A DNA stretch of 23,389 nt from Candidatus Baldrarchaeum yapensis (GCA_016840465.1 JAEOSH010000034.1:1-23389); one strand, 5' to 3'. Counted from the stretch's first letter, positions 1,030 through 4,000 are shown. A program made the numbers and translations. Notes: generated by a model not told the origin, from the sequence alone.

Positions 1030-4000
1030 AAGCCCGGCACGCCTATGCCGCCCGGTGGATGGCTCGGCTCGGGCGCTGACGAAGGCCGTGGCAAGCTGCG
1101 ATAAGCCCCGGGTAGGCGCAGGCAGCCGTTGATCCGGGGATTGCCGAATGGGACCTCCTGCCAGGGGGGATAACCCCCTGGCGTTCCCGTGCGGGTGACG
1201 AGCCCGCATGGGAACGGGAACCCGCCGAATTGAAACATCTTAGTAGGCGGAGGAAAAGAAACCAAAAGGGATCCCGGGAGTAGGGGCGACCGAAACCGGG
1301 AGAGCCCAAACCAAACCCCCGGAGGAAACTCCGGGGGGATGTGGTGTTGCAGGACCCTGCCGCCGCCTCTTGGGGGAAGCCGAACTCCGGTGGAAGTCCG
1401 GGGCCGTAGAGGGTGATAGCCCCGTAGGCGTAACCCCGGGGGCGATGGGCAGGGTATCCTGAGTACCGTGGGTCGGATATCCCGCGGGAATCTGGCGGGC
1501 ACCGACCGCCAAGGCTAAATACGTCCCGAGACCGATAGCGCACTAGTACCGTGAGGGAAAGCTGAAAAGTACCCCGGAAGGGGGGTGAAAAGAGCCTGAA
1601 ACCGGGCGGTGATATAAGGGTGCGGCCCGAAAGGGTAGAACCTCCCCGAAGGAAACCGGGGCGACCCGGGAGTACGAGGGGAGGGGACCAGGGTCGCACC
1701 GTCCGTCTTGAAACACGGGCCGGGGAGTCCGTCCGAGTGGCGAGCCTAAGGGGATCATCCCCGAAGGCTCAGGGAAACCAACATGCCCGCAGCCGGGGGG
1801 CACTCGGGTAGTGAAAGCCGAAAGGATTCCAGGTTAATCCTGGGATCCGAGTAGGTGAGTAGCTATCCGAGTCCTCGGTCAGGGGCGGGGTCTGACAAGG
1901 GCCCGGAGTCACTCGGACGGGACCAGAAGCCGAGCGATCTAGGCCGGGGTAGGGTGAAGCGGGGCGAAAGCCCCGTGGAGGCCCGAAGGGGTGCTGACGT
2001 GCAATTCGCTCCCATGACCCCGGTCTAGGGGCAAAAGACCAATCAAGCTCGGCGATAGCTGGTTCCCCCCGAAGCTGGTCGCAGCCAGGCTCGGCCGGAG
2101 GTAGCCGGCGGGGTAGAGCACTGATTGGAGGTACCGGGGGCGAAAGCCCTCGGCCTCCTTTCAAACTCCGAACCCGTCGGCGCCGTAGATGGCCGGAGAC
2201 GGGCCTAGGGGGTAAGCTCCTAGGCCGAGAGGGGAACAACCCAGACCCGGGTTAAGGCCCCAAAGTGCCGGCTAAGTGTGAATCCAAAGGGCGTCCCCAG
2301 CCTCAGACAGTGGGGAGGTAGGCTTAGAAGCAGCCATCCTTTAAAGAGTGCGTAACAGCTCACCCACCGAGGCTGGGGGCCCCGAAAATGGACGGGGCTT
2401 AAGCCGGCCGCCGAGACCCGGGGGCACGGCCGCTTTGCGGCCGTGATCCGGTAGGGGGGCGTCCCGATGGGGTAGAAGCTGGGCCGTGAGGTCCAGTGGA
2501 CCCGTCGGGAACGAAGATCCCGGCGGTAGTAACAGCAAAGTCGGGTGAGAATCCCGACCGCCGGAGGGGCCAGGGTTCCTCGGCAATGCGTCGTCAGCCG
2601 AGGGTTAGTCGGTCCTAAGGCCGGGGGTAACACCTACCGGCCGAAAGGGAAGCAGGTTTATATTCCTGCACCGTGGGGGTACAATCGCGGCAACGCAAGC
2701 CCGGTTCCCGACGCTTCGGGGTAGGCCGACCGGGACTGCCGTCCCGGCTAACTCCCCGAAGCCCGGGGAGTGCCGTAATGGCGAGAACCGGGCGAAGGGA
2801 GGAATGGCCTGCCGTTATGGCGGGTTCGGCCGATCCCTGGAGCCCGTGAAAAGGGAACCGGGAAGGATCCCCCACGACCGTACCGAGAACCGACACTGGT
2901 GCCCCTAGGTGAGAAGCCTCAGGCGTGTCGGGCTGAACCCGGGCTAGGGAACTCGGCAAATTGGCCCCGTAACTTCGGGAGAAGGGGTGCCTGGGGTCTT
3001 GGCCGGAAGGCTGGGACCCCAGGTCGCAGTGACTAGGGGGGCCTGACTGTTTAATAAAAACGTAGCTCCCCGCTAGCCCGAAAGGGTGTGTACGGGGGGT
3101 GAGGCCTGGCCAGTGGCGGTCCGTGAAACCCGGGTCCAACCGGGTTAAGCGCCGCTAAACGCCGGGAGTAACTATGACTCTCTTAAGGTAGCCAAATGCC
3201 TTGCCGGATAAGTACCGGCGTGCATGAACGGCTTAACGAGGTCCCCACTGTCCCAGCCCGGGGCCCGGTGAACCCGCACCCTGGTGAACAGACCAGGGAC
3301 CCCCGACGGGGAGAGAAGACCCCGTGGAGCTTCACCGCAGCCTGGTCCTGGGTTACGGTTGTGGGTGCATAGCGTAGGCGGGAGCGATGAATCCGCCTCT
3401 CCGGGGGCGGAGGATGCGCCCATGGAACACCGCCCACCCACGACCGTAACCCTTACCGGGGCGAAAGTCCCGGGACACGGCCAGGTGGGCGGTTTGGCTG
3501 GGGCGGCACGCCCCCGAAAAGGTATCGGGGGCGCCCAAAGGCCGGCTCAGGCGGGTCAGAACTCCGCTGTAGAGTGCAAGGGCAAAAGCCGGCCTGACTG
3601 GACCCCGCACAGCAAGGGGTCCAGGGGTGAAAGCCTGGCCTAGCGATCCTTCGTGCCCCCATCGGTGGGGGCCGGAGGTGACAGAAAAGTTACCCCGGGG
3701 GTAACAGGCCCGTCGCGGGCGAGAGTTCACATCGACCCCGCGGCTTGGTACCTCGATGTCGGCTCTTCCCATCCTGGGGGTGCAGCAGCCCCCAAGGGTG
3801 GGGCTGTTCGCCCATTAAAGGGGAACGTGAGCTGGGTTTAGACCGTCGCGAGACAGGTCGGACTCTACCTGTCGGGGGTGTTGGCCGCCTGAGGGTAAGG
3901 TGCCCTAAGTACGAGAGGAACGGGGCGCCGGGGCCTCTGGTGTACCGGTTGTCCGGCAGGGCATCGCCGGGCAGCCACGCCCCAACCGATAAGGGCTGAA

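What the first reader, a model, noticed from the sequence alone, without database searches (positions are those of the whole stretch)
1792..1879. Enlarged 23S expansion segment at the H30/H31 (ES9) site
An 88-nt element replaces the short hairpin typical of archaea between CCCGCA and CAGGGGC. It folds as a long stem: ACTCGGGTAG pairs with CTATCCGAGT, and an inner hairpin GGATTCCAGG-TTAAT-CCTGGGATCC sits beyond internal loops. ES9L is a eukaryotic expansion site, and enlarged ES9 has been reported in some Asgard archaea. There is no ORF and I see no BHB at its base, so it is more likely retained in the mature rRNA than spliced out. It would be a GC-rich thermophile version of a eukaryote-like ribosomal expansion.
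Basis: partly seen in the sequence, partly recalled or inferred. Interest (0 to 1): 0.65.

Follow-up and report, generated by a model that had tools for sequence, protein, structure and literature searches.

The report
Enlarged 23S rRNA helix-30 arm (ES9)
The only large-subunit rRNA gene of this heat-loving Asgard archaeon carries a 102-base helix 30 where most archaea have about 30 bases. Enlargement at this site is already known from Lokiarchaeota, but this arm has a different architecture, with two tandem sarcin-ricin-type loops, that several other Asgard families share.

Summary
The Rfam archaeal LSU model aligns across window 1031-4195 and finds 79 nt where the consensus has 3. These lie in the apical loop of the hairpin between H29 and H31, which is helix 30, the helix Penev et al. 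2020 use to measure Asgard ES9. H30 spans 1785-1886 (102 nt) and folds far better than shuffles (z -5.6).

The sister family has a 125-nt version in 10 independent sequences. Four or five other Asgard families carry arms with the same ground plan: inner stem, 3-nt 5' bulge, long helix, then a GAA/AGUA internal loop at a fixed depth. Covariation supports the helices.

The window has this loop twice in tandem. Loki-type arms lack it.

A bulge-helix-bulge alternative exists but costs 13.8 kcal/mol. It is not conserved. The arm is never missing, whereas a real intron elsewhere in the same rRNA comes and goes among near-identical sequences.

The best reading is an expansion segment kept in the mature rRNA (about 0.8). 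Retention was not tested with RNA data.

Enlarged H30 arms of another design also occur in about a dozen Thermoproteota genomes, so the "eukaryote-like" flavour is weak. The scan has already flagged enlarged ES9 arms in at least six other genomes.

The parts
1785..1788 (+). 5' strand of the basal stem of helix 30 (GCCC), pairs with 1883-1886
   Evidence: cmscan structure line; fold; 100% paired with 2 of 4 pairs covarying
1789..1791 (+). Conserved H30 internal loop, 5' side (GCA); 3' side is 1880-1882 (CAG)
   Evidence: Present in short and long H30 of all families
1792..1798 (+). Inner stem of H30, 5' strand (GCCGGGG), pairs with 1873-1879; also present in short H30s
   Evidence: 93.7% of cells paired, 3 of 7 pairs with double changes
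1799..1801 (+). 3-nt bulge on the 5' strand (GGC; register can slip to GCA 1800-1802). A 3-nt bulge sits at the same place in f2 (UAG/UCA) and f12 (GCA)
1802..1812 (+). 11-bp extension helix, 5' strand, pairs with 1862-1872
   Evidence: 95.8% of cells paired, 5 of 13 pairs with compensatory changes across f1, f2 and f12
1813..1816 (+). First GAAA strand of S-turn (loop-E / sarcin-ricin type) internal loop 1; partner strand GAGUA 1857-1861
   Evidence: AGUA invariant in 9 of 9 aligned sequences; same AGUA...GAA signature as the SRL of this rRNA at 3908-3921
1817..1819 (+). 3-bp spacer helix GCC, pairs with GGU 1854-1856
1820..1823 (+). Second GAAA strand, S-turn loop 2; partner GAGUA 1849-1853 (tandem copy of loop 1)
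1824..1848 (+). Apical hairpin: 10-bp stem 1824-1833/1839-1848, loop UUAAU 1834-1838
1849..1861 (+). 3' strands of the two S-turn loops (GAGUA 1849-1853, GGU 1854-1856, GAGUA 1857-1861)
1862..1879 (+). 3' strands of the extension helix (1862-1872) and of the inner stem (1873-1879), continuous with no bulge
1880..1886 (+). 3' side of the H30 internal loop (CAG) and of the basal stem (GGGC)
1031..4195 (+). The LSU rRNA gene that holds the arm; 3165 nt, the only copy found in the assembly
   Evidence: one match in G000

Best explanation
Window 1785-1886 is helix 30 of the 23S rRNA, grown from the usual roughly 30-nt hairpin into a 102-nt rod. I take it to be an expansion segment (ES9 in the sense of Penev 2020) that stays in the mature rRNA and projects from the surface of the large subunit. 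Its plan is: ordinary inner stem, a 3-nt bulge, an 11-bp helix, two identical GAAA/GAGUA internal loops separated by 3 bp, and a 10-bp hairpin. The GAAA/GAGUA loops have the sequence signature of the bulged-G (sarcin-ricin / loop-E) motif, a rigid, widened-groove module that usually serves as a docking site for a protein or another RNA. Because one such loop sits at nearly the same depth in the arms of five or six Asgard families, I infer that it is the functional point of the arm: a contact with a ribosomal protein or assembly factor about two helical turns from the ribosome body. The window's second copy would then be a local duplication. Shown: position, size, fold, covariation, conservation of the motif, constancy in the order. 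Inferred: retention in the ribosome, the S-turn geometry, and any partner.
For: Position: insert of 79 versus 3 nt in the H30 loop, the same hairpin that is enlarged in Loki-type genomes and short (about 30 nt) in the 4.4-Mb closed genome, as Penev reports for P. syntrophicum (PMC7594248). Fold: z -5.61. Only one LSU copy was found in a 96%-complete genome, so this gene must make working ribosomes. Constancy: the sister family (LSU 89-90% identical) has a 125-nt H30 in G001, in a JdFR contig and in 8 metagenome contigs. No copy lacks it, while a 583-nt intron at another site is present or absent among 97%-identical LSUs. Covariation over f1+f2+f12: 95.9% of cells paired versus at most 58.6% in slid controls, 10 of 24 pairs with double changes, 0 of 500 shuffles as high. 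Motif: the GAA/AGUA loop closes at nt 29-35 of the arm in f1 (twice), f2, f12 (3 species), f24 and f26; AGUA is invariant in the alignment. Composition is like the rest of the rRNA. There is no RNase III gene. By analogy, Loki ES9 is present in metatranscripts (PMC7594248) and visible as density on Lokiarchaeum ribosomes (PMC9834061).
Against: No RNA-level data for this organism or its order were available, so retention is not shown. A BHB-like alternative can be drawn at the base in f1 and, more weakly, in f2. The genome has two splicing-endonuclease paralogs. From my own knowledge, that heteromeric type accepts relaxed motifs. Earlier agents also report many BHB introns in this genome. Excision there would leave a plausible 8-bp stem with a 7-nt loop. 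The S-turn assignment rests on sequence signature only. No partner was identified: eL13, which touches ES9L in human ribosomes (PMC7988564), is encoded, but it is equally present in families with short H30.
Confidence: 0.8

Rival explanations
1. It is a tRNA-type (bulge-helix-bulge) mini-intron. The splicing endonuclease would cut in bulges 1800-1802 and 1865-1867 and the ligase would rejoin the ends, removing about 65 nt and leaving an ordinary short H30.
For: A 3-4-3 arrangement can be drawn: outer helix 1792-1799/1872-1879, bulge GCA, central CUCG/CGAG, bulge AUC, inner 3 bp. A weaker equivalent exists in f2. The chance of a 3-bp slip is about 5%. There are two EndA paralogs. Earlier notes report many BHB introns in this genome and a mini-intron in helix 91 of another Asgard 23S. 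The spliced product would be a plausible hairpin.
Against: The BHB conformer is 13.8 kcal/mol worse than the continuous helix at 37 C, and 6.4 worse at 85 C. Its inner helix is 2-3 mostly G-U pairs. One f2 variant breaks the central helix. f12, f24, f26 and f15, with the same arm plan, have no BHB at all. The arm is never absent in the order, whereas a true intron in the same gene is polymorphic. An internal motif conserved at a fixed depth across families is not expected of intron interiors. From my own knowledge, archaeal rRNA introns usually sit in conserved core regions, not at the tip of a variable surface helix.
Confidence: 0.1
2. It is an intervening sequence that is cut out without religation, as in bacterial 23S helices 25 and 45, giving a 23S rRNA in two pieces.
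For: Its shape, a long stem replacing the loop of a peripheral hairpin, resembles bacterial IVSs (my own knowledge).
Against: No RNase III family match in the 96%-complete genome, while the control genomes matched. The conserved S-turn motif and covariation argue for a role in the mature particle. I know of no precedent in archaea.
Confidence: 0.03
3. It is an assembly or binning artefact: the arm, or the whole rRNA, does not belong to this genome.
For: rRNA operons are often misassembled. I found one public contig (MTLY02000002.1) that joins an rRNA operon of this lineage to a Bathyarchaeia genome.
Against: The window links the rRNA to genes that are 57-65% identical to those of the sister family, at the same spacing from one another. 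An independent metagenome contig links the sister-type LSU to a gene 98% identical to a sister-family MAG gene. The arm is contiguous with perfectly aligned flanks and recurs in 10 independent assemblies.
Confidence: 0.02

Closest known systems
Enlarged ES9 (helix 30) of Lokiarchaeota LSU rRNA (Penev et al. 2020, PMC7594248; seen on 'Ca. Lokiarchaeum ossiferum' ribosomes, PMC9834061)
   Same: Same helix, same mode of growth (from the apical loop of H30), same phylum, and similar size: 102 nt here, 29-103 nt reported.
   Different: Different lineage: a GC-rich, probably thermophilic order that was not in the 2020 data set. Different architecture too: a 3-nt bulge plus GAA/AGUA loops, absent from the Loki-type arms I folded. 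No transcript or structural evidence here.
Eukaryotic ES9L (D3 region, helices 29-31); contacted by the C-terminal helix of eL13 in human ribosomes (PMC7988564); late-acting in yeast 60S assembly (PMC4931108)
   Same: Same attachment region of the LSU. An eL13 gene is present in this genome.
   Different: By the H30 measure yeast has 29 nt and human 44 nt (PMC7594248), shorter than this arm. I saw no sequence or structural similarity beyond the site. eL13 presence does not track arm size in Asgard.
Sarcin-ricin / loop-E (bulged-G, S-turn) motif, e.g. the SRL of this same rRNA at 3908-3921
   Same: AGUA opposite GAA, flanked by Watson-Crick helices.
   Different: Here it lies in an internal loop of a peripheral arm, twice in tandem, and with the opposite polarity relative to the hairpin tip. 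The geometry has not been verified.
   Same: Small size, hairpin form, and a host genome rich in BHB introns.
   Different: No stable BHB, not sporadic, conserved interior, peripheral site.
H30 arms of some Thermoproteota (earlier scan note e1-5474318)
   Same: Same helix, grown from the tip, 36-62 nt longer than usual.
   Different: Different design: an asymmetric CCUCUAC-type loop and a GAUUCAUGA-type apical loop, with no GAA/AGUA loop. Different phylum.

Membership tests
Asgard ES9 (helix 30) expansion segment, sensu Penev 2020 | Extra sequence lies inside LSU helix 30, between H29 and H31 | tested here: met
   cmscan alignment to RF02540; same hairpin as the Loki-type enlargements
Asgard ES9 (helix 30) expansion segment, sensu Penev 2020 | H30 much longer than the 20-30 nt of ordinary archaea | tested here: met
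   102 nt here versus 26-32 nt in short forms; the H29-to-H32 interval is 171 nt versus 88-101 nt in about 29 genomes of about 17 families
Asgard ES9 (helix 30) expansion segment, sensu Penev 2020 | Host is an Asgard archaeon | tested here: met
   The tool's phylum holds 400 genomes, including closed 4.4- and 6.0-Mb genomes whose H30 is short and enlarged respectively, as published for the two cultured Lokiarchaeia. The sister-family MAG is titled 'Candidatus Odinarchaeota archaeon'. Window genes are 57-65% identical to sister-family genes at the same spacing. The class name (Baldrarchaeia-like) comes from earlier notes and is unchecked
Asgard ES9 (helix 30) expansion segment, sensu Penev 2020 | Helical structure kept by compensatory change | tested here: met
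   95.9% paired, 10 of 24 pairs with double changes, controls at most 58.6%
Asgard ES9 (helix 30) expansion segment, sensu Penev 2020 | Present in mature rRNA and in the ribosome | not testable with these tools
   No transcript data available; an exact-product look-up for assemblies holding this stretch found nothing
Archaeal BHB intron | Stable 3-nt bulge / 4-bp helix / 3-nt bulge at the boundaries | tested here: not met
   Only a strained alternative, +13.8 kcal/mol; absent in f12, f24, f26 and f15
Archaeal BHB intron | Sporadic presence among close relatives | tested here: not met
   Present in all 11 sequences of the order; the real intron site at window position about 3184 is polymorphic
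Archaeal BHB intron | Excision restores a normal rRNA helix | tested here: inconclusive
   The hypothetical product would be an 8-bp stem with a 7-nt loop, which is plausible but proves nothing
Bacterial-type 23S intervening sequence | Removal by RNase III | tested here: not met
   No PF14622 match in G000; 8 control genomes matched
Bulged-G (sarcin-ricin / loop-E) motif | AGUA strand opposite a GAA strand, between Watson-Crick helices | tested here: met
   Two loops, GAAA/GAGUA; AGUA invariant across three families
Bulged-G (sarcin-ricin / loop-E) motif | S-turn backbone with the non-canonical pairs of the motif | not testable with these tools
   Needs probing or a structure
Kink-turn | 3-nt bulge followed directly by tandem G.A/A.G pairs | tested here: not met
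   Read from the sequence: neither strand of either loop gives C-stem / 3 nt / GA with GA opposite

The most novel reading that the evidence does not exclude
The arm defines a second, so far undescribed class of Asgard ES9: an old, homologous arm carrying an S-turn, shared by at least five or six families outside Lokiarchaeia. Its conserved GAA/AGUA loop would recruit a specific ribosomal protein extension or assembly factor. If so, rRNA-protein co-expansion at the ES9 site began deep in Asgard evolution rather than only in Loki lineages, and the tandem copy here shows growth by duplication of a module.
Probability: 0.2. Interest if true: 0.6.

Novelty: new member of a known kind. Interest (0 to 1): 0.4.

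Why it matters
Published work in the library I could search names only Lokiarchaeota (ES9, ES39) and Heimdallarchaeota (ES39) as prokaryotes with supersized expansion segments. It also states that non-Asgard archaea have 20-30 nt at ES9. This window, its sister family and several other Asgard families show that 100-170-nt H30 arms are more widespread. They come in at least two architectures. One of these keeps a sarcin-ricin-type loop at a fixed depth, which gives a concrete, testable handle for finding what expansion segments bind. The Thermoproteota arms show that H30 is a general hot spot for growth. This tempers the use of ES9 as a eukaryote-related or Asgard-specific marker, for example for recognising cells in cryo-tomograms.

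Tried and rejected
1. Intron reading. I scanned for strict BHB motifs and compared energies. Rejected as the main reading for the reasons given under the rivals. My attempt to use the 583-nt intron of the sister-family LSUs as a positive control did not recover its boundaries, so the strict scan may miss relaxed motifs.

2. K-turn reading of the internal loops: the sequence does not fit.

3. Known RNA family inside the arm. An Rfam E-value search of 1790-1881 gave only sub-threshold noise.

4. Transcript evidence. An exact-product look-up of a spurious ORF across the arm found nothing.

5. Worry that the sister-type LSU is really bathyarchaeal, because it sits on a 'Ca. Hecatella orcuttiae' contig. 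Resolved: that contig looks chimeric, and the same MAG has a second LSU with a short H30.

6. eL13 as a partner. The gene is present, but it is also present in families with short H30, so there is no correlation.

7. Single versus multiple origin. A quick LSU tree has strong composition bias and a nested outgroup. It needs at least 2-3 changes for the S-turn arms and settles nothing. The f27 state is unknown because the bases are masked.

8. Naming the other families. The tools give only codes, and the search for 'AUK032' in papers found nothing.

Full report
WHAT IS THERE

The window opens with the 3' part of a 16S rRNA gene, followed by a complete archaeal 23S gene (1031-4195, 3165 nt, 2882 bits to RF02540) and an RNase P RNA gene. 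A focused cmscan of 1500-2200 aligns every helix of domain II with posterior probabilities near 1. The one exception is the apical loop of the hairpin that follows H29 (GGGAAACC) and precedes H31, where the model has 3 nt and the window has 79.

This hairpin is helix 30.

The stretch 1780-1895 folds at -61.5 kcal/mol against -40.75 +/- 3.7 for shuffles (z -5.61, none of 200 as good).

ANATOMY

- Basal stem: 1785-1788/1883-1886.
- Conserved GCA/CAG internal loop.
- Inner stem: 1792-1798/1873-1879. These elements together form the ordinary short H30.
- A 3-nt bulge on the 5' strand: 1799-1801.
- An 11-bp helix: 1802-1812/1862-1872.
- An internal loop GAAA/GAGUA: 1813-1816/1857-1861.
- Three base pairs.
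- A second, identical GAAA/GAGUA loop: 1820-1823/1849-1853.
- A 10-bp hairpin with loop UUAAU.

H30 as a whole is 102 nt. AGUA opposite GAA is the sequence signature of the bulged-G (sarcin-ricin / loop-E) motif. The same signature sits in the SRL of this rRNA at 3908-3921. The loops do not fit a kink-turn.

The arm has the same GC content as the rest of the rRNA and matches no Rfam family on its own.

WHOSE rRNA IS IT

The assembly has one LSU copy. The closest LSU (89-90% identity over 3.1 kb) is the type found on a 4-kb contig of a sister-family MAG (G001, titled 'Candidatus Odinarchaeota archaeon AUK032'). The same type occurs on eight metagenome contigs and on a 481-kb contig of 'Ca. Hecatella orcuttiae' JdFR-11, a bathyarchaeon.

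The last of these was a warning sign, so I checked it:
- That MAG has a second LSU with a short H30 at the start of another contig.
- The gene downstream of the suspect operon scores the same against a sister-family Asgard genome as against the Hecatella contig itself. In an independent metagenome contig it is 98% identical to a gene of G001.
- The gene upstream of the suspect operon has no close Asgard counterpart.

The Hecatella contig therefore looks chimeric at the rRNA operon.

In the window itself, the rRNA is linked to Topo VI-B and SAH hydrolase genes. These are 57-65% identical to those of three sister-family genomes and lie at the same spacing from one another. Topo VI-B is only 29% identical to the Hecatella homologue.

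The phylum as delimited by the tool contains closed genomes of 4.4 and 6.0 Mb. Their H30s are about 30 nt and 85 nt, matching what is published for the two cultured Lokiarchaeia (PMC7594248, PMC9834061). The host is an Asgard archaeon. Earlier agents call it Baldrarchaeia-like, which I did not check.

DISTRIBUTION

I measured the H29-to-H32 interval in about 42 Asgard genomes.
- It is 88-101 nt in about 29 genomes of about 17 families. In roughly 40 further genomes of family f7 the two flanks lie only 5-10 nt apart.
- It is 151-235 nt in 13 genomes of 8 families:
  - the window's own f1: 171 nt
  - sister family f2: 193 nt
  - f12: 186 nt in three species
  - f24: 189 nt
  - f26: 179-183 nt
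  - f15: 235 nt
  - the Loki-type f9: 170 nt
  - f28: 151 nt in one genome, short in the other

The arm is therefore normal for its order, unusual for the phylum, and far more widespread than the 2020 paper reported.

In a control sample of 201 Thermoproteota genomes, most matches are colinear with a short-H30 query. About a dozen carry 36-62 extra nt. I fetched and folded twelve of these and the extra sequence is again an H30 arm, of a different design. This agrees with an earlier scan note (e1-5474318). It contradicts the statement that non-Asgard archaea have only 20-30 nt here.

STRUCTURE IS UNDER SELECTION

I aligned nine distinct sequences of f1, f2 and f12 and counted a hand-drawn structure for the three basal helices.
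- 95.9% of cells are standard pairs, against at most 58.6% with the partner slid by 1-3 columns.
- 10 of 24 pairs show changes on both sides.
- 0 of 500 shuffles reach the observed covariation score.

The AGUA of the internal loop is invariant in all nine sequences, while the surrounding helices vary. In minimum-free-energy folds, the GAA/AGUA loop closes at nt 29-35 of the segment in f1 (twice), f2, three f12 species, f24 and one f26 genome. f15 has CAAC/CAGUA at the same depth. The Loki-type arms have nothing like it.

A loop kept at a fixed depth across families is the strongest internal argument that the arm works in the mature particle.

INTRON OR NOT

Earlier notes say this genome is rich in BHB introns, so I treated the intron reading seriously.

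In favour of an intron:
- A strict scan finds one candidate: outer helix 1792-1799/1872-1879, bulge GCA, central CUCG/CGAG, bulge AUC, then only three inner pairs, two of them G-U.
- A weaker equivalent, with two G-U inner pairs, exists in f2.
- The genome has two splicing-endonuclease paralogs.

Against an intron:
- Forcing the BHB conformer costs 13.8 kcal/mol at 37 C, and 6.4 kcal/mol at 85 C.
- There is no BHB candidate in f12, f24, f26 or f15.
- The arm is present in every sequence of the order. In contrast, a 583-nt insertion at window position about 3184 (the CUCUUAA|GGUAGCC site) is present in some sister-type LSUs and absent in another that is 97% identical.
- No RNase III gene was found, which argues against bacterial-style IVS removal.

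I put retention at about 0.8, a mini-intron at about 0.1, and the other readings below 0.05. None of this is RNA evidence. The analogy is with Loki ES9, which appears in metatranscripts and as density on ribosomes (PMC7594248, PMC9834061).

MECHANISM

Shown: a rigidly paired, conserved rod at the ES9 site with one or two S-turn-type loops.

Inferred: the rod projects from the subunit surface, and the loop is a docking point for a protein or RNA about two helical turns out. The tandem copy in the window arose by local duplication of a 7-nt module on each strand.

In human ribosomes the C-terminal helix of eL13 touches ES9L (PMC7988564). In yeast, deleting ES9L blocks a late step of 60S assembly (PMC4931108). 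An eL13 gene is present here, but it is just as common in families with short H30, so it is at most a candidate neighbour.

ORIGIN

A quick LSU tree with the arm columns dropped groups f24 with f26. It places f12 and f15 in the same unresolved node. It puts f1+f2 elsewhere, near GC-rich rows, with a bathyarchaeal 'outgroup' nested inside. Composition bias is flagged for many rows. The tree requires at least 2-3 changes for the S-turn arms and cannot distinguish one old origin with losses from repeated growth.

VERDICT

This is a real feature, correctly located. It is a new member of a known kind (Asgard ES9 enlargement) with a distinctive and conserved internal motif. The interest is moderate: it widens the known range of large prokaryotic expansion segments and offers a concrete motif to test. 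Enlargement at this site is already published, and it also occurs outside Asgard.

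Noticed in passing
L070 (G400:C2:461200-481129 = MTLY02000002.1, 'Ca. Hecatella orcuttiae' JdFR-11): This public bathyarchaeal contig appears chimeric. It carries a complete 16S-23S-RNase P operon of the Asgard sister-family type, and its downstream genes match Asgard genomes (80% identity, with a score equal to that against G002). The gene upstream has no close Asgard homologue. The same MAG has a second LSU at the start of contig 3.
   Followed up: partly
window 4328-4690; also L052, L057, L070, L072: An RNase P RNA gene directly follows the 23S gene. 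The same order is seen in the sister-family contigs and in the bathyarchaeal operon. The RNA is 363 nt here against a 288-position model.
   Followed up: no
window about 3184 (between CUCUUAA and GGUAGCC): A known-type intron site is empty in the window and in L070. It holds a 583-nt insert in sister-type metagenome LSUs that are 97% identical to L070, and a 784-nt insert in the Hecatella C3 LSU. My strict BHB scan did not find its boundaries.
   Followed up: partly
window about 1184-1200: A 17-nt lengthening of a domain I hairpin (GUUCCCGUGCGGGUGACGAGCCCGCAUGGGAAC) relative to the sister family and Hecatella. This is a second small lineage-specific extension.
   Followed up: no
window about 4040-4060 (H98/ES39 region): The window is 14 nt shorter than the sister family at the ES39 site, so ES39 and ES9 sizes do not change together in this order.
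   Followed up: no
L051, L057, L070 (SSU genes): Sister-type 16S genes span 2169-2239 nt against a 1478-position model, so they hold about 700 nt of intron.
   Followed up: no
L076-L087 (Thermoproteota genomes G558, G544, G550, G434, G574 and others): H30 arms 36-62 nt longer than usual. They have a CCUCUAC-type asymmetric loop, and many have a GAUUCAUGA-type apical loop. This is outside Asgard, contrary to the published 20-30 nt range.
   Followed up: partly
G000:C56:16145-16384 and G000:C53:4158-4412: Two tRNA-splicing endonuclease paralogs of about 200 aa each, which suggests the heteromeric enzyme type.
   Followed up: no
L050 (G226, family f9) versus L020, L024, L048: One genome of the Loki-type family f9 has a short H30 interval (99 nt) while three others have 170-171 nt, so arm size varies within the family.
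   Followed up: no
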